Shown here one piece after another: positions 5,874-33,955 of a stretch of 64,000 nucleotides of DNA. A program made the position numbers and the translations under genes. The stretch comes from Escherichia phage vB_Eco_F26: sequence record OP870145.1; one strand, 5' to 3'. Each line of letters begins with the position of its first letter. Within the stretch, counting starts at the first letter, position 1. Under the pieces are notes generated by a model. It was not told where the DNA came from. It saw nothing but the letters and a program-made list of their open reading frames with translations, and made no database searches.

Positions 5874-6137
5874 TTATTTCATATTATTGAAATATTCTTC
5901 TGCGATTTCATCGTTATCGTGGTAAACTTTAGAAGACAGTTTAACATAACCTTCAGCAGTGAACATATTAATCACAACTTTTACAGTATACCACTGACCG
6001 TCTTCATTACCCATTACTGCGTAAGTTTCAAACATCGGATGGTCAGGACCGATAACTTTAATATCATTCACTGTACGACCGAAATCTTCTGAAACGCATT
6101 TCATAAAGAAGTTGAACAGTTCGCCGTAATTATCCAT
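5874..6137 (-). CDS. hypothetical small protein (87 aa from ATG; ORF track gives 5874..6149 from TTG)
   Basis: ATG at 6137 with GGAG SD 7 nt upstream; first 8 codons lie inside the 350-bp tandem repeat. Confidence 0.55.
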   Translation of the reverse strand: MDNYGELFNFFMKCVSEDFGRTVNDIKVIGPDHPMFETYAVMGNEDGQWYTVKVVINMFTAEGYVKLSSKVYHDNDEIAEEYFNNMK

Positions 6138-6180
6138 TTCATTCTCCAAGTTGTTTTCTGTATCAGTAGTTGATAGTTGT

Positions 6181-6210
6181 ATAGTACCACGGAAGAACAG
6201 AGATGTAAAC
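6181..6210 (-). promoter_or_regulatory. T4 early-type promoter (GTTTAC -35 / TACTAT -10 with A/T-rich upstream region), repeat copy 1
   Basis: Minus strand TTTTCACAAAACTGTTTACATCTCTGTTCTTCCGTGGTACTAT upstream of ATG 6137. Confidence 0.5.
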
Positions 6211-6341
6211 AGTTTTGTGAAAAATTTTTTAAAAAGTTTTAGGGAATTCTAGGGAAGGGAGGGGCAATTAAAGGATAGGATAATATATTATAAAGGGTAG
6301 AAACTAAATGATGCCTAGAGAGGTCCAGAAAGGCCTAGATG

Positions 6342-6368
6342 CCAAAAAGCCCTATCATTTAGATAGGG
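6342..6368 (-). terminator. intrinsic terminator (hairpin CCCTATC-taaat-GATAGGG + T-run), repeat copy 1
   Basis: Minus strand CCCTATCTAAATGATAGGGCTTTTTGG. Confidence 0.5.
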
Positions 6369-6530
6369 ATTTAAAATTATTTATCTAGTTTAGTTATTAT
6401 AGCTTCTACGGCAGCTTTTAGCTTAGATGCGGTGTTAATACGATTTTTAATTTCAGTATACGCGAACAGTTCGCCGTAATTATCCATTTCATTCTCCAAG
6501 TTGTTTTCTGTATCAGTAGTTGATAGTTGT

Positions 6531-6560
6531 ATAGTACCACGGAAGAACAGAGATGTAAAC
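6531..6560 (-). promoter_or_regulatory. T4 early-type promoter, repeat copy 2
   Basis: Duplicate of 6181..6210. Confidence 0.5.
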
Positions 6561-6691
6561 AGTTTTGTGAAAAATTTTTTAAAAAGTTTTAGGGAATTCT
6601 AGGGAAGGGAGGGGCAATTAAAGGATAGGATAATATATTATAAAGGGTAGAAACTAAATGATGCCTAGAGAGGTCCAGAAAGGCCTAGATG

Positions 6692-6718
6692 CCAAAAAGC
6701 CCTATCATTTAGATAGGG
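6692..6718 (-). terminator. intrinsic terminator, repeat copy 2, directly after IP gene stop
   Basis: Duplicate of 6342..6368; follows stop codon at 6727. Confidence 0.5.
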
Positions 6719-6726
6719 ATTTAAAA

Positions 6727-7290
6727 TTATTTATCTAGTTTAGTTATTATAGCTTCTACGGCAGCTTTTAGCTTAGATGCGGTGTTAATACGATTTTTAA
6801 TTTCAGTATACGCATCGCCAAGAACATCAAGGCTATCAGAATAAACACTTACACTATTGCGTTCGCTATTTGAAATAGAACCTTTAGTTTTACGATCAAA
6901 ATCGGTGTACACGTCTTGAAGATCACGCGCTGCCTTCTTTGCATCATCCAATGCATCAAGAGCTTTATTCAAAGCATTAACGTATTTTTTAGTGTCGAAC
7001 ATATTCTTAGAAATTTTAGCAGGTGCACGTTCAGGAGTAGCTAATACAGATTTAGGAACCTGAGCGCCAGATGCCAATTTCTTAGAAATTTTGAAAAACG
7101 CTTTATTGAATTTATTTTCTTGACTCATCGTAAAAGAACTATTATCGATGTTGTACATTTCAATAGCTTTAGCTTTCCACTTAAGAAAATCGCCGCGGTC
7201 TTTTGGGTCCAAGTGGAAAAATACTTTAGTAAGATCTGCTTCAGATGGTAATTTTGCTGCTTCGGTTAAAAATTCGGCATAGGTTTTCAT
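6727..7290 (-). CDS. internal protein (IP) family, 187 aa, with capsid-targeting sequence
   Basis: N-terminus MKTYAEFLTEA (CTS with L-x-E protease site); size similar to T4 IPIII. Confidence 0.7.
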   Translation of the reverse strand: MKTYAEFLTEAAKLPSEADLTKVFFHLDPKDRGDFLKWKAKAIEMYNIDNSSFTMSQENKFNKAFFKISKKLASGAQVPKSVLATPERAPAKISKNMFDTKKYVNALNKALDALDDAKKAARDLQDVYTDFDRKTKGSISNSERNSVSVYSDSLDVLGDAYTEIKNRINTASKLKAAVEAIITKLDK

Positions 7291-7380: not shown

Positions 7381-7405
7381 AAAAACCCCAACCTTTCGGT
7401 CGGGG
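7381..7405 (-). terminator. intrinsic terminator (CCCCGACC-GAAAGG-TTGGGG hairpin + T5)
   Basis: Minus strand GCCCCGACCGAAAGGTTGGGGTTTTT directly after the out-of-frame stop at 7415. Confidence 0.55.
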
Positions 7406-7551
7406 CTAAGAATGTTATTTGATTTGTTTAGCAGACCAAATGCGGTCTTTGATGATTTTTTGAATGTCTTCAACATACTCAAGAGAGTGAACATGTGGAT
7501 TATCTTTGAAACTATAAGCACGGGCTAACTTTTGGCCTTCGGTTTTGATTA

Positions 7552-7937: not shown

Positions 7938-7964
7938 AAAAAGCCCCAACCTTTCGGTCGGGGC
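7938..7964 (-). terminator. intrinsic terminator (second copy of the CCCCGACC-GAAAGG-TTGGGGC hairpin + T5)
   Basis: Minus strand GCCCCGACCGAAAGGTTGGGGCTTTTT. Confidence 0.55.
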
Positions 7965-7968
7965 TAAG

Positions 7969-9171: not shown

Positions 9172-9657
9172 TTATTTTATGTAATATTTATTTAAAAACT
9201 TTCTAGCTTGAGTATGGCTAACATTTATAGCGTTTGCATAATTTTTAATAAAACCTCGTTCATCCATATTAAAATTTTCTAATATTTTTAATCGTCTAGT
9301 TATCTCATCTTGGCTTAAGGTACTTGCATTATTTTTAGAAATTTTTTCTAAGGACTGTGCCGAGTGTTTTCGACCATTAAAATTAAAATTTTTAGATTTT
9401 GGAGGAAATCTATTATTTAGTCTCGCATCTTTTGTATTTTGATTATTAGTTGCGCAATATATGTTATTTAATGAATATGGTCCTTTATCGCCGAAACGGC
9501 ACATGCAGTATTCATGACCCTTTCTTCCACGCTTATCATATTTTCCCGTTGATTTCCACCAATGCAGCCATTCATCAAAAGTTAAATTCCATTCAATGTT
9601 TCTACGTATAGCAGAATTCCGCTGAGAAATATATTTTGCATAATCTTCTTTCATCAC
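9172..9657 (-). CDS. HNH-family homing endonuclease-like protein with NUMOD-type DNA-binding motifs, embedded in the tRNA cluster
   Basis: 161 aa; GHEYCMCRFGDKGPYSLNNIYCATNNQN (HNH_3-like), GRKHSAQSLEKI repeat, C-terminal helix-turn-helix-like segment; T4 has a GIY-YIG seg gene in the analogous region. Confidence 0.6.
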   Translation of the reverse strand: MMKEDYAKYISQRNSAIRRNIEWNLTFDEWLHWWKSTGKYDKRGRKGHEYCMCRFGDKGPYSLNNIYCATNNQNTKDARLNNRFPPKSKNFNFNGRKHSAQSLEKISKNNASTLSQDEITRRLKILENFNMDERGFIKNYANAINVSHTQARKFLNKYYIK

Positions 9658-15111: not shown

Positions 15112-16867
15112 TAACCTCAACTGGTTTGTTGGTGTTGTTGAAGATAGAATGGACCCATTAAAATTAGGTCGTGTTCGTGTTCGTGTGGTTGGTCTGCATC
15201 CACCTCAAAGAGCGCAAGGCGACGTAATGGGTATTCCAACTGAAAAATTACCATGGATGTCAGTTATTCAACCTATAACTTCTGCAGCAATGTCTGGAAT
15301 TGGAGGTTCTGTTACTGGACCGGTAGAAGGAACTAGAGTTTATGGTCATTTTTTGGACAAATGGAAAACTAACGGAATTGTCCTTGGCACGTATGGCGGA
15401 ATAGTTCGCGAAAAACCGAATAGACTTGAAGGATTTTCTGACCCAACTGGGCAATATCCTAGACGTTTAGGAAATGATACTAACGTACTAAACCAAGGCG
15501 GAGAAGTAGGATATGATTCGTCTTCTAATATTATCCAAGATAGTAACTTAGACACCGCAATAAATCCCGATGATAGACCGTTATCAGAAATTCCAACCGA
15601 TGATAATCCAAATATGTCAATGGCTGAAATGCTTCGCCGTGATGAAGGATTAAGACTAAAAGTTTATTGGGATACCGAAGGATATCCGACAATTGGTATT
15701 GGTCATCTTATCATGAAGCAGCCAGTTCGTGATATGGCTCAAATTAATAAAGTTTTATCGAAACAAGTTGGTCGTGAAATTACAGGAAATCCAGGTTCTA
15801 TTACAATGGAAGAGGCGACGACTTTATTTGAGCGTGATTTGGCTGATATGCAACGTGACATTAAATCACATTCTAAAGTAGGACCAGTCTGGCAAGCTGT
15901 CAACCGTTCTCGCCAAATGGCATTAGAAAATATGGCATTTCAGATGGGTGTTGGCGGTGTAGCTAAATTTAACACAATGTTAACTGCTATGTTAGCAGGA
16001 GATTGGGAAAAAGCATATAAAGCCGGTCGTGATTCATTGTGGTATCAACAGACAAAAGGCCGTGCATCCCGTGTTACTATGATTATTCTTACGGGAAATT
16101 TGGAATCATATGGTGTTGAAGTGAAAACCCCAGCTAGGTCTCTATCAGCAATGGCTGCTACTGTAGCTAAATCTTCTGACCCTGCTGATCCTCCTATTCC
16201 AAATGACTCGAGAATTTTATTCAAAGAACCAGTTTCTTCATATAAAGGCGAATATCCTTATGTGCATACAATGGAAACTGAAAGCGGACATATTCAGGAA
16301 TTTGATGATACCCCTGGGCAAGAACGATACAGATTAGTTCATCCGACTGGAACATATGAGGAAGTATCACCGTCAGGAAGAAGAACAAGAAAAACTGTTG
16401 ATAATTTGTATGATATAACAAATGCTGATGGTAATTTTTTGGTAGCCGGTGATAAAAAGACTAACGTCGGTGGATCAGAAATTTATTACAACATGGACAA
16501 TCGTCTTCACCAAATAGATGGAAGCAATACAATATTTGTGCGCGGCGATGAAACTAAGACGGTTGAAGGTAATGGAACTATCCTAGTTAAAGGTAATGTT
16601 AAAGTAGTTATTCAAGGAACAGCAGATATAACTGTTGAACAGGAAGCATACATAACTGTTGAAAAAGACACGACTGTTAATGTTAACCAAAACGCAGACA
16701 TAAGTGTTAAAAATAAAGCAACTGTTAATGCTGAAAATATGGATGTCAACGTTGAGCAAGATTTAAATTTTTCAGCGACAAATATTAATTTAAGTGCATC
16801 TAATACTGTTCATATGGATGGCGGGGTTCTTTCTAAAGTATCAGGTGGAAACGTACAGGTTGGTTAA
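15095..16867 (+). CDS. 5: baseplate hub and tail lysozyme gp5 (cell-puncturing spike), variant C-terminal beta-helix
   Basis: N-terminus MEMISNNLNWFVGVVEDRMDPLKLGRVRVRVVGLHPPQ and internal lysozyme domain (MAEMLRRDEGLRLKVYWDTEGYPTIGIGH) match T4 gp5 as recalled; 590 aa vs 575; last ~90 aa differ. Confidence 0.92.
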   Translation: MEMISNNLNWFVGVVEDRMDPLKLGRVRVRVVGLHPPQRAQGDVMGIPTEKLPWMSVIQPITSAAMSGIGGSVTGPVEGTRVYGHFLDKWKTNGIVLGTYGGIVREKPNRLEGFSDPTGQYPRRLGNDTNVLNQGGEVGYDSSSNIIQDSNLDTAINPDDRPLSEIPTDDNPNMSMAEMLRRDEGLRLKVYWDTEGYPTIGIGHLIMKQPVRDMAQINKVLSKQVGREITGNPGSITMEEATTLFERDLADMQRDIKSHSKVGPVWQAVNRSRQMALENMAFQMGVGGVAKFNTMLTAMLAGDWEKAYKAGRDSLWYQQTKGRASRVTMIILTGNLESYGVEVKTPARSLSAMAATVAKSSDPADPPIPNDSRILFKEPVSSYKGEYPYVHTMETESGHIQEFDDTPGQERYRLVHPTGTYEEVSPSGRRTRKTVDNLYDITNADGNFLVAGDKKTNVGGSEIYYNMDNRLHQIDGSNTIFVRGDETKTVEGNGTILVKGNVKVVIQGTADITVEQEAYITVEKDTTVNVNQNADISVKNKATVNAENMDVNVEQDLNFSATNINLSASNTVHMDGGVLSKVSGGNVQVG

Positions 16868-16868
16868 T

Positions 16869-18905
16869 ATGAATTATAACGAAATTGTTGATGAATTAGT
16901 TGATACCATACAATCAGCTTGTTCAATTATTCCCGAAGGTTATTATAGACGAGTTAAATGGGAATTATACAATCCCAATAAAGAAATGATTCAACCCGAT
17001 AATGGGGTTGAATGGGACACTGAAATTATTAAATTAGATACCCATCTTTACACTGAAAATCCATTTGGTCATTCTTCTGATACATTTACTGAATCATCTG
17101 ATGGAGAAACCCAAACTGGTGTTTTTTGTCATAAAATCGGCGTGTATTTTCCAACTCAAACTGCGTTAGAAGATTACGTTGAACAAATTGGTGCAACTTT
17201 ACTTCCGGGTAATACTTGGTATGGTGCTGATTTATCGAAACGTGAATTTTTTAAAACTGAAATTGAATATGATATGTATCGCATTGAAAATCGCGGAGGT
17301 ACATGGCATCATACGGGTCCTAGAATAGATGCTAGGACAATGATCGGTGTTAACAATGACTATACAATGTATGTTAACTTTAACGGTTTAGGAGATTATC
17401 GAAGAGCATATTTAAAATATTATGAAGATAAACCATGTACATATGTCGGTTTAACACTAAATTTAAATATAGATACATCAATTCCCGGTATTCCTTATTC
17501 ACCTCCATCAATTATTGGAGAGCTTCCACTTAATGCAATTTCATGCGTTAATTTTACTGCCCAATTTCCATACAATGGCTTAACATCTGCAATTATTGAG
17601 GCTTGGAACACCTCAAGAGATTCATTTAAACTATATTGGGATATGTTGCCTGGTATGCCGGCAATTAGCGGAAGTGATTTCGAAAAATATTTTAATTCGG
17701 CATATACACATTTATCTGTAGCAATGGAAGAGCTTGGAAATTCGGCAATTGCTATGTGTCAATATGTTCAGCAACAAGCCTTTATGGTTTTTAAAAATTC
17801 TGTTTCACAAGTTCTAAATATTGTCGGTGGCGGATGGGATTTATTAAAAAGTTTTTTACCTAAAATAACAATAATGGGCATATCTATTGATATTGAAGAT
17901 TTATGTACATCAACAGATGGTGTTCAAAAATTGAAGGAAACCTTTGAAAATTTTAATCTGGAAGATACTATTAGTTCAATTTATTCTGCAATGGGTTCTG
18001 CATATGACTATTCTATAGAACGCGTTAAAATGTATTCGCGGGATTTAGTTGATGCAATAACAGATTTATATGATTGGGCCTGGTCAAAATTAATGATGGC
18101 TGGTGTCGCTTTATCAAAATTATGTGTTGATTTAGCACAAATCTGGAGCATGCCACCAATTATTCCAAATCCAGTGTGGTCTGTTATCACTTTAGTGAAG
18201 GAAATGATGAAACAAATTCCTCCATTAGATATGATTATGTCAGGTAATTTTCCTGGATTTACTGCTTCTGATGTATATCAGATGGTTATGTCTATTGTAT
18301 CTGAAAAAATTAAACAAGTTTATACTGAAATAGAATCATTAAAAACCCAAGCATTGGATGTATGGAATGAAATTAAACTAAAAACACAGGAATATAAAAA
18401 GCAAACGATTGAATTTAAACAATATTTATCAGGAATGGCTGAAAAGGTTGAAGATGAAATAACTATAGCAAAAGAGAAAGCATTACAAGAAGCTGAATCC
18501 GCTTTAAATGTTTTAAAGGATAAATATAACAGTATTAAAGACTTAATAAAAAATAAGCAGATTTCTGTGTCTGATGTATTAGATTTAGCTTTGACTGAAT
18601 TTCGAAAAATTCCATTAATTTCACAAATGGAATCATTATTATCTTTAGCTGGAGCATCTATCGATGATATAATGAAAGTATATGAAAATAGCGTTACTAA
18701 AGCAAAATCATTATATCACGAATTCACCGATGGCGCTCGGTCAATGAAAGATCTATGCAAATCATTATACAATCAAATTTCGACTTTATGTTTGAGTAAG
18801 GTTGTGCAATGGATTAATAAAATGCTTGGAATATTTGGATTAAGTATTACATTTCCAACAGTATCAATATGCATTCCATGCTTAAAAACTCCTATGAGGA
18901 ATTAA
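16869..18905 (+). CDS. large uncharacterised protein (678 aa) between genes 5 and 6
   Basis: Uninterrupted 2037-nt frame in AT-rich DNA; ATG 1 nt after the gp5 stop; predicted coiled coil plus hydrophobic segments; no counterpart recalled in T4. Confidence 0.7.
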   Translation: MNYNEIVDELVDTIQSACSIIPEGYYRRVKWELYNPNKEMIQPDNGVEWDTEIIKLDTHLYTENPFGHSSDTFTESSDGETQTGVFCHKIGVYFPTQTALEDYVEQIGATLLPGNTWYGADLSKREFFKTEIEYDMYRIENRGGTWHHTGPRIDARTMIGVNNDYTMYVNFNGLGDYRRAYLKYYEDKPCTYVGLTLNLNIDTSIPGIPYSPPSIIGELPLNAISCVNFTAQFPYNGLTSAIIEAWNTSRDSFKLYWDMLPGMPAISGSDFEKYFNSAYTHLSVAMEELGNSAIAMCQYVQQQAFMVFKNSVSQVLNIVGGGWDLLKSFLPKITIMGISIDIEDLCTSTDGVQKLKETFENFNLEDTISSIYSAMGSAYDYSIERVKMYSRDLVDAITDLYDWAWSKLMMAGVALSKLCVDLAQIWSMPPIIPNPVWSVITLVKEMMKQIPPLDMIMSGNFPGFTASDVYQMVMSIVSEKIKQVYTEIESLKTQALDVWNEIKLKTQEYKKQTIEFKQYLSGMAEKVEDEITIAKEKALQEAESALNVLKDKYNSIKDLIKNKQISVSDVLDLALTEFRKIPLISQMESLLSLAGASIDDIMKVYENSVTKAKSLYHEFTDGARSMKDLCKSLYNQISTLCLSKVVQWINKMLGIFGLSITFPTVSICIPCLKTPMRN

Positions 18906-31444: not shown

Positions 31445-33955
<2,511 letters not shown>

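What the first reader, a model, noticed from the sequence alone, without database searches (positions are those of the whole stretch)
6114..6813. Perfect 350-bp tandem duplication spanning a gene junction, creating an in-frame chimeric mini-ORF and duplicating a terminator-promoter cassette
6114..6463 and 6464..6813 are identical base for base. The unit contains the last 29 codons of the 187-aa internal-protein gene, an intrinsic terminator, an early promoter (GTTTAC -35 / TACTAT -10) and the first 8 codons (MDNYGELF) of the downstream 87-aa gene. At the copy junction the downstream gene start is fused in frame to the IP gene tail, giving a promoter-driven 36-codon chimeric ORF (MDNYGELF-AYTEIKNRINTASKLKAAVEAIITKLDK). 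A perfect tandem duplication of this size is recombinationally unstable, so it is either very recent, selected (for example doubling early promoter dosage), or an assembly artefact. No microhomology is evident at the boundaries.
Basis: seen in the sequence. Interest (0 to 1): 0.6.

Follow-up and report, generated by a model that had tools for sequence, protein, structure and literature searches.

The report
Assembly-made 350-bp duplication in phage genome
The perfect 350-base tandem duplication is really in the deposited sequence, but it is almost certainly a leftover of genome assembly and re-opening (an untrimmed contig-end overlap) and not a feature of the phage, because every T4-like genome of the same submission carries one such duplication at an unrelated place.

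Summary
Window 6114-6463 and 6464-6813 are identical, with no shared bases at the boundaries.

The biological readings do not hold up.
- About 600 related Tequatrovirus records, including G50 (99.9% identical here), have one copy.
- The junction is absent from 50,697 phage records and from IMG/VR.
- Exact protein look-ups identify the source as Escherichia phage vB_Eco_F26 (OP870145).
- The neighbouring accessions I scanned whole, F25, F27 and F31, each carry exactly one perfect tandem duplication, of 318, 343 and 347 bp. They lie at unrelated loci (rIIA/rIIB, gene 61, gene 8) with 0-1 nt of junction homology.
- The F25 duplication straddles the arbitrary start of its record.
- The next-longest exact repeat in these genomes is 60 nt or less. 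In the control genome G50 the longest is 35 nt.

Confidence about 0.9. The finding matters only for database curation.

The parts
6114..6463 (.). Copy 1 of the 350-bp unit, promoter-proximal to the intact e.8 homologue.
   Evidence: Identical to copy 2.
6464..6813 (.). Copy 2 of the 350-bp unit, contiguous with the intact 187-aa gene. The novel junction lies at 6463/6464 (TTCAGTATACGC|GAACAGTTCGCC).
   Evidence: A 40-mer across the junction is absent from 50,697 phage records, and a 28-mer is absent from IMG/VR. Alignment to G50 and two other relatives breaks exactly at 6463/6464, with 350 nt aligned twice.
6727..7290 (-). Intact 187-aa gene, internal-protein-like, with an N-terminal capsid-targeting-type sequence MKTYAEFLTEA. 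Its last 28 codons plus stop lie in the unit.
   Evidence: ORF list. PHROG 2280, E 8e-53. N-terminus compared with T4 IPIII and IPII. The identical protein occurs in G50 and in one metagenome contig, both single-copy loci.
5874..6137 (-). Intact 87-aa homologue of T4 e.8. Its first 8 codons lie in the unit.
   Evidence: ORF list. PHROG 2678, E 3e-56. Annotated e.8 in RB14, Shfl2 and RB69. PF26879 on the G50 orthologue.
6377..6487 (-). Chimeric 36-aa ORF created by the junction: 8 codons of e.8 fused in frame to 28 codons of the 187-aa gene tail.
   Evidence: This exact product is not on record anywhere in the gene-position collection.
6700..6718 (-). Predicted intrinsic terminator of the 187-aa gene, in copy 2.
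   Evidence: Consensus scan. The same site is annotated as a putative terminator in G50.
6350..6368 (-). Duplicate of the terminator, in copy 1, downstream of the chimeric ORF.
6531..6559 (-). Early-promoter-like site (G)TTTACA-17-TACTAT with TG, in copy 2. It would drive the chimeric ORF.
   Evidence: Consensus scan. A consensus match only.
6181..6209 (-). The same promoter-like site in copy 1, upstream of the intact e.8 homologue.

Best explanation
The duplication is an artefact of how the genome record was built. It is not a feature of the phage DNA.

T4-like genomes are circularly permuted, so a de novo contig closes on itself and its two ends overlap. In this submission the overlap was about 320-350 bp. 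When the linear contig was re-opened at the conventional T4 origin (the rIIA/rIIB junction), the old ends were joined without trimming the overlap. That leaves a perfect head-to-tail duplication at the old contig ends.

In F26 the old ends happened to lie in the tail of the 187-aa internal-protein-like gene and the start of e.8. The true locus is therefore single-copy: 187-aa gene, terminator, early promoter, e.8. The 36-aa chimeric ORF and the second terminator-promoter cassette do not exist in the phage.

Shown: the duplication, its uniqueness to this record, and the submission-wide pattern. Inferred: the exact software step that produced it.
For: 1. The source was identified by exact protein look-ups as Escherichia phage vB_Eco_F26, a 172,940-bp record. 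The accession is OP870145, and it is the largest of 421 Tequatrovirus genomes (PMC13353012).
2. I scanned three T4-like genomes with adjacent accession numbers in full, circularised. Each holds exactly one long perfect repeat, and it is always tandem.
   - F25 (OP870144): 318 bp.
   - F27 (OP870146): 343 bp at 17692, in the 5' end of the DNA primase gene.
   - F31 (OP870147): 347 bp at 89199, in the 3' end of gene 8.
   - The next-longest exact repeat in these genomes is 60 nt or less.
   - With F26's 350 bp, the four sizes give a mean of 339.5 and an sd of 14.6.
3. The F25 duplication straddles the record's own start. The first copy is the last 156 nt plus the first 162 nt of the record. That coordinate is a human convention, and a biological event has no reason to sit on it.
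4. The control genome G50, from another laboratory, scanned the same way, has a longest exact repeat of 35 nt.
5. Each junction is private to its own record.
   - The F26 junction is absent from the phage collection and from IMG/VR.
   - The F25 and F27 junction 40-mers hit only their own records.
   - F31 lacks F27's duplication.
   - F25 is single-copy at the F26 locus.
   - About 600 relatives are single-copy at the F26 locus.
6. Junction microhomology is 0, 1, 0 and 0 nt, as expected for arbitrary cut points.
7. The F25, F27 and F31 records all begin at the T4 origin, so they were re-opened after assembly. The window's offset from T4's e.8 (70360 against 5874) fits F26 being opened there too.
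8. Published guidance warns that phage contigs may extend beyond 100% of genome length, and that T4-likes are re-opened after rIIB (PMC8785237).
9. In F31 the duplication removes the stop codon of the baseplate gene 8 and adds 10 residues. Such an alteration is more readily explained as an artefact than as a tolerated change.
Against: - No reads were available, so the junction was not tested directly in F26.
- The assembler and the finishing steps of this submission are not documented in any paper I could find.
- Only 64 kb of F26 was visible, so 'exactly one per genome' is unverified for F26 itself.
- An overlap of 318-350 bp is not a standard k-mer overlap, so the producing step is inferred.
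- In F25 the old contig ends would have to lie at the T4 origin. That implies a slightly different order of steps (re-opening, then end extension, then re-opening), which I cannot confirm.
- The non-T4 genome of the same accession run, F22 (N4-like), does not show the signature. This fits the artefact being tied to circularly permuted genomes, but it also means the pattern is not universal in the submission.
- Real tandem duplications without junction homology are possible in T4.
Confidence: 0.9

Rival explanations
1. A genuine, very recent spontaneous tandem duplication in the F26 stock. It would have arisen by illegitimate recombination without homology and been caught before T4's efficient homologous recombination collapsed it. 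It would be neutral or nearly so.
For: - Zero divergence between the copies fits a very recent event.
- Both flanking genes remain intact, so the event would be tolerated.
- T4 does form tandem duplications and amplifications readily (PMC9391042).
Against:
- One of the four sits exactly on the arbitrary record origin.
- Documented T4 amplifications form at 2-10 bp microhomologies, have variable unit sizes and usually more than two copies. Here the microhomology is 0 nt.
Confidence: 0.06
2. A selected duplication. The extra terminator-promoter cassette or the 36-aa chimeric peptide would give an advantage, for example more early transcription of e.8.
For: - The unit carries a promoter-like site and a ribosome-accessible in-frame ORF.
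- Selected amplifications of promoter-plus-gene units are known in T4.
Against: - The unit contains no complete gene.
- The added promoter is followed by the added terminator before e.8, so read-through gain is doubtful.
- The chimeric peptide lacks the N-terminal targeting sequence and has no homologue on record.
- No relative carries the duplication.
- The submission-wide pattern at unrelated loci has no common selective logic.
Confidence: 0.02
3. A minority structural variant in a mixed phage population that the assembler wrote into the consensus.
For: Tandem duplications segregate in T4 stocks, so mixed populations are plausible (established T4 genetics).
Against: It does not explain the shared size class, the one-per-genome pattern, or the position on the F25 record origin.
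Confidence: 0.02

Closest known systems
Untrimmed terminal overlap of a contig from a circularly permuted phage genome (assembly extended beyond 100% of genome length), made internal by re-opening the record
   Same: - Perfect identity between the copies and exactly two copies.
- Arbitrary boundaries inside genes, with no junction homology.
- In F25 it lies on the record origin.
- The guidance paper describes the problem (PMC8785237).
   Different: The overlap length (318-350 bp) is larger than the k-mer overlaps I know from common de Bruijn assemblers (own knowledge). The software step is not documented for this submission.
Genuine T4 segmental amplifications (dmd-tifA amplification under toxIN selection; Hp17 gene 16-18 amplifications; rII duplications)
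   Same: Head-to-tail repeats in a T4-type genome that can include a promoter (PMC9391042).
   Different: The genuine cases:
- form at 2-10 bp microhomologies;
- contain a complete selected gene;
- vary in unit size between isolates;
- reach several to about ten copies;
- are balanced by deletions elsewhere.

Here there is 0 nt of homology, no complete gene, exactly two copies, and one size class across unrelated loci.
PeSL cassettes (promoter-early stem-loop: terminator hairpin plus early promoter) of T4-type phages
   Same: The real single-copy intergenic region has this architecture, a terminator hairpin followed by an early-type promoter. Neighbouring internal-protein-like genes end in near-identical hairpins at 7381-7410 and 7939-7968. 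PeSLs are described in PMC2839356 and PMC4122927 (titles and abstracts only).
   Different: PeSL-mediated shuffling recombines at the cassettes themselves. Here the duplication boundaries lie in coding sequence on either side of the cassette, not within it.
T4 internal proteins IPII and IPIII (capsid-targeting sequence, cleaved by the prohead protease)
   Same: The 187-aa and 111-aa proteins start MKTYAEFLTEA and MKSYAQFLNEA. T4 IPII and IPIII start MKTYQEFIAEA.
   Different: There is no detectable similarity beyond the N-terminus in the family searches. The locus lies between the tRNA cluster and e.8, not at the T4 ipII/ipIII position. Packaging into heads is untested.

Membership tests
Assembly or circularisation artefact (untrimmed contig-end overlap) | The copies are 100% identical, number exactly two, and lie head to tail. 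| tested here: met
   350/350 identical, 2.0 copies.
Assembly or circularisation artefact (untrimmed contig-end overlap) | The junction is private to the record and absent from close relatives. | tested here: met
   No match for the junction 40-mer in 50,697 phage records or for the 28-mer in IMG/VR. The method is validated by the self-only hits for the F25 and F27 junctions. Relatives are single-copy.
Assembly or circularisation artefact (untrimmed contig-end overlap) | The same signature recurs in other genomes processed by the same submitter, at unrelated positions, one per genome. | tested here: met
   F25 318 bp, F27 343 bp and F31 347 bp, each the only long exact repeat in its whole genome. 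The control G50 has none above 35 nt.
Assembly or circularisation artefact (untrimmed contig-end overlap) | The record was re-opened or rotated after assembly. | tested here: inconclusive
   F25, F27 and F31 all start at the rIIA/rIIB junction as T4 does. For F26 this is only inferred from the window's offset relative to T4 e.8. The start of the F26 record was not visible.
Assembly or circularisation artefact (untrimmed contig-end overlap) | No reads span the novel junction, and depth is even on a single-copy reference. | not testable with these tools
   No read data were available. Neither chimeric ORF product is on record in the gene-position collection, which includes Logan assemblies. The contigs carrying neighbouring proteins come from other phages.
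Genuine T4 tandem duplication or amplification | The junction formed at a short (2-10 bp) homology. | tested here: not met
   0 nt at the F26 junction; 0, 1 and 0 nt in the other three genomes. The criterion comes from PMC9391042.
Genuine T4 tandem duplication or amplification | The unit contains a complete gene whose dosage could be selected. | tested here: not met
   The unit holds only 28 codons of one gene and 8 codons of another, plus the intergenic cassette.
Genuine T4 tandem duplication or amplification | Physical presence in phage DNA (ladder or divergent-primer PCR product, raised read depth). | not testable with these tools
   This needs the phage stock or its reads.
PeSL-mediated rearrangement | The rearrangement end points lie within the terminator-promoter cassettes. 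| tested here: not met
   The boundaries at 6114 and 6813 lie in coding sequence. The cassette elements lie at 6181-6209 and 6350-6368 inside the unit.
T4 internal proteins (for the 187-aa gene) | An N-terminal capsid-targeting sequence with the L-x-E protease site. | tested here: met
   MKTYAEFLTE|A against T4 MKTYQEFIAE|A; 8 of 11 residues identical.
T4 internal proteins (for the 187-aa gene) | Presence in the phage head and injection with the DNA. | not testable with these tools
   This needs virion proteomics.

The most novel reading that the evidence does not exclude
The duplication is physically present in the F26 phage. It would be a homology-independent tandem duplication a few infection cycles old, which has just created a promoter-driven, terminator-bounded 36-aa fusion ORF from pieces of two genes. 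That would be a snapshot of de novo micro-gene birth in a hyperplastic region of a T4-type genome.
Probability: 0.07. Interest if true: 0.35.

Novelty: not a real feature. Interest (0 to 1): 0.07.

Why it matters
Biologically it does not matter. The locus is an ordinary single-copy internal-protein-like gene, terminator, early promoter and e.8 arrangement, as found in hundreds of Tequatroviruses.

It does matter for data quality. Four public T4-like genome records (OP870144 to OP870147) appear to carry 318-350 bp of spurious sequence each.
- The duplications produce annotated phantom genes:
  - in F25, an rIIA fragment and an rIIB N-terminal ORF;
  - in F27, a DNA primase fragment;
  - in F31, a gene 8 product lengthened by 10 residues plus a gene 8 fragment;
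  - in F26, an unannotated 36-aa chimera.
- They add 318-350 bp to each reported genome size. F26 is cited as the largest Tequatrovirus.
- Scans that flag perfect tandem duplications in phage records should first check other genomes from the same submitter.

Tried and rejected
- I looked for the chimeric ORF as a called gene anywhere in public assemblies. That could have given independent read-level support, but neither the 36-aa nor the 40-aa form is on record.
- I looked for assemblies of F26's own reads through neighbouring proteins. The contigs found come from other phages, 93-99% identical, and are single-copy or end inside the region. They are uninformative about F26's reads.
- gp6 of F26 is unique to that record, but it is not in the gene-position index, and the record is not in the phage collection. 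The record coordinates of the window could therefore not be read directly.
- RB69 first looked as if it might share the duplication, because its match spans 1767 nt. The extra length is an unrelated inserted ORF.
- An Rfam scan of the region found only tRNAs and sub-threshold noise in the intergenic spacer, so there is no hidden RNA gene that could motivate selection.
- No paper describes how the F-series phages were sequenced or assembled.
- F22, an N4-like phage with an adjacent accession number, was scanned as a further test and lacks the signature.
- I rejected the idea that the repeats are short fixed terminal repeats of the virion DNA. Their positions differ between close relatives and fall inside essential genes (primase, gene 8).

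Full report
**1. The observation**

Window 6114-6463 and 6464-6813 are identical at all 350 positions. The repeat cannot be extended by one base on either side, so there is no microhomology at the boundaries. Tandem Repeats Finder reports period 350, 2.0 copies, 100% matches and score 1400. It is the only long exact repeat in the 64-kb window; the next longest is 35 nt.

**2. Anatomy of the locus**

All genes here are on the minus strand. In the direction of transcription the order is:
- An intact 187-aa ORF at 7290-6727.
- A terminator-like hairpin at 6718-6700 (CCCTATC-TAAAT-GATAGGG followed by CTTTTT).
- A promoter-like site at 6559-6531, (G)TTTACA-17-TACTAT preceded by TG.
- The chimeric ORF at 6487-6377: MDNYGELF from the downstream gene fused in frame to the last 28 residues of the 187-aa protein.
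- The second terminator copy at 6368-6350 and the second promoter copy at 6209-6181.
- The intact 87-aa gene at 6137-5874.

The 87-aa gene is the homologue of T4 e.8. It matches PHROG 2678, is annotated e.8 in RB14, Shfl2 and RB69, and the G50 orthologue carries PF26879.

The 187-aa protein and the neighbouring 111-aa protein (7887-7552) both fall in PHROG 2280, of unknown function. They begin MKTYAEFLTEA and MKSYAQFLNEA, close to the capsid-targeting sequence MKTYQEFIAEA of T4 IPII and IPIII. 'Internal-protein gene' is therefore a fair inference, not a tested fact.

The terminator is also annotated at the same place in phage G50. Rfam finds nothing in the spacer above noise.

**3. Comparison with relatives**

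- A 1.8-kb query around the site matches 626 phage records. The best is Escherichia phage vB_EcoM_G50 at 99.9% identity, and it spans 1451 nt in the record, which is the query length minus 350.
- BLAST of the window against G50, a metagenome contig and other loci breaks exactly at 6463/6464, with 350 nt of the subject aligned twice.
- A 40-mer centred on the junction has no match in 50,697 phage records, and a 28-mer has none in IMG/VR.
- The same 40-mer test detects the analogous junctions of F25 and F27 in their own records only, so the negative result is meaningful.
- RB69's longer match is an unrelated inserted ORF.

**4. Source of the window**

Exact look-ups of ten large proteins identify the source as Escherichia phage vB_Eco_F26, a 172,940-bp record. 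The accession is OP870145, cited as the largest of 421 Tequatrovirus genomes (PMC13353012). The record itself is not in the searchable phage collection, and I found no paper describing its assembly.

T4's e.8 lies at 70360 and the window's at 5874. That fits a window taken from about base 64,001 of a record opened at the T4 origin.

**5. The decisive comparison: genomes with adjacent accession numbers**

OP870144 (F25, Tequatrovirus), OP870146 (F27, Mosigvirus) and OP870147 (F31, Mosigvirus) are T4-like genomes of the same series. All three are opened at the rIIA/rIIB junction. I fetched all three in full and searched each, circularised, for exact repeats.

| Genome | Tandem duplication | Position | Consequence in the annotation |
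|---|---|---|---|
| F25 | 318 bp | First copy is the last 156 nt plus the first 162 nt of the record; second copy is 163-480 | An rIIA fragment CDS and a 54-aa ORF that is the rIIB N-terminus |
| F27 | 343 bp | 17692-18377, over the 5' end of the primase gene | A 'DNA primase' fragment CDS |
| F31 | 347 bp | 89199-89892, inside the 3' end of gene 8 | The gene 8 stop codon is lost, 10 residues are added, and a 97-aa gene 8 fragment follows |
| F26 (this window) | 350 bp | Window 6114-6813 | The 36-aa chimeric ORF |

- In each of the three genomes this is the only long perfect repeat. The next-longest exact repeat is 60 nt or less.
- The control genome G50, from another laboratory, has a longest exact repeat of 35 nt.
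- The four unit sizes (318, 343, 347, 350) have a mean of 339.5 and an sd of 14.6. Junction homology is 0, 1, 0 and 0 nt.
- The duplications are not shared among the F phages. F31 has a single primase locus, and F25 is single-copy at the e.8 locus.

**6. Interpretation**

All four fall in one narrow size class and lie at unrelated positions that cut through genes. One of them straddles the human-chosen origin of its record. None is seen in hundreds of relatives or in a control genome. This is what an untrimmed overlap of contig ends looks like after a circularly permuted genome has been closed and re-opened.

A published annotation guide warns that phage contigs may be extended beyond 100% of genome length, and recommends opening T4-like genomes after rIIB (PMC8785237).

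Genuine T4 amplifications look different. They form at 2-10 bp microhomologies, contain the selected gene with a promoter, differ in unit size between isolates, reach many copies, and are balanced by deletions (PMC9391042).

The 'doubled promoter dosage' idea is also weak on anatomy. The extra promoter is followed by the extra terminator before e.8, and the unit contains no complete gene.

I put the artefact explanation at about 0.9. The remainder is split between a real recent neutral duplication, a selected one, and a minority variant.

**7. What remains uncertain**

- I had no reads, so the F26 junction itself is untested.
- Neither chimeric ORF product is on record in the gene-position collection, which includes Logan assemblies. 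The contigs found through neighbouring proteins belong to other phages.
- Only 64 kb of F26 was visible.
- The software step that yields 318-350-bp overlaps is inferred.
- The F25 case implies that its contig ends lay at the T4 origin. That points to end extension after a first re-opening, which I cannot confirm.
- The N4-like F22, with an adjacent accession number, lacks the signature. This is consistent with the artefact being tied to circularly permuted genomes.

**8. Verdict**

Biologically this is not a real feature. The true locus is the ordinary single-copy arrangement seen in G50 and about 600 other records. The practical value is curation: four public records carry spurious duplications and phantom ORFs.

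Noticed in passing
L011:1-480 with L012 end (OP870144, vB_Eco_F25 record 166819-166974 plus 1-480): A perfect 318-bp tandem duplication straddles the record origin at the rIIA/rIIB junction. It produces an annotated 40-aa 'rIIA' fragment (10-129) and a 54-aa ORF that is the rIIB N-terminus (152-316).
   Followed up: yes
L013:17692-18377 (OP870146, vB_Eco_F27): A perfect 343-bp tandem duplication lies over the 5' end of the DNA primase gene, giving an annotated 'DNA primase' fragment CDS at 18023-18202. In addition, the F27 record is opened inside the 3' end of rIIA, so the intact 740-aa rIIA ORF runs across the record ends and is not annotated.
   Followed up: yes
L020:39699-40392 (OP870147, vB_Eco_F31 record 89199-89892): A perfect 347-bp tandem duplication lies inside the 3' end of baseplate gene 8. 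The first copy loses its stop codon and gains 10 residues (…ILFMFSQPVGDMKIT), and a 97-aa gene 8 fragment is annotated after it.
   Followed up: yes
window 16602-18905: The C-terminal part of gp5 diverges from relatives. The usual 5.1-5.4 block, including the PAAR gene, is replaced by one large ORF (678 aa from the ATG at 16869) with no Pfam hit. It is 99.9% identical to a hypothetical protein of Salmonella phage SG1, occurs in only 9 records at 99% or more, and is about 41% identical to proteins at the same position in Klebsiella and Enterobacter T4-like phages. It may be an alternative spike-tip module.
   Followed up: partly
window 9172-9657 (-): A 161-aa ORF sits between tRNA-Met and tRNA-Ser, where G50 has tRNA-Thr. 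The window has 10 tRNA genes and no tRNA-Thr. There is no Pfam hit. It may be a mobile endonuclease-type insertion in the tRNA cluster.
   Followed up: no
window 7381-7410 and 7939-7968: Two nearly identical (97%) strong terminator hairpins follow an unexamined stretch and the 111-aa internal-protein-like gene. With the weaker hairpin after the 187-aa gene, this forms a run of terminator-bounded gene cassettes resembling the PeSL organisation of T4-type hyperplastic regions.
   Followed up: partly
L025/L026 (OP870143, vB_Eco_F22, record 64202-65084 and record ends): This N4-like genome with an adjacent accession number has an in-frame 441-bp tandem repeat with a single mismatch inside its tail-fibre gene. 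It also has an approximately 230-nt near-identical stretch close to both record ends. I could not tell whether these are real.
   Followed up: partly
window 32371-33183: A 270-aa ORF lies between genes 13 and 14. The corresponding ORF in a related metagenome contig has a faint HNH_4 hit, so it may be a homing-endonuclease insertion.
   Followed up: no
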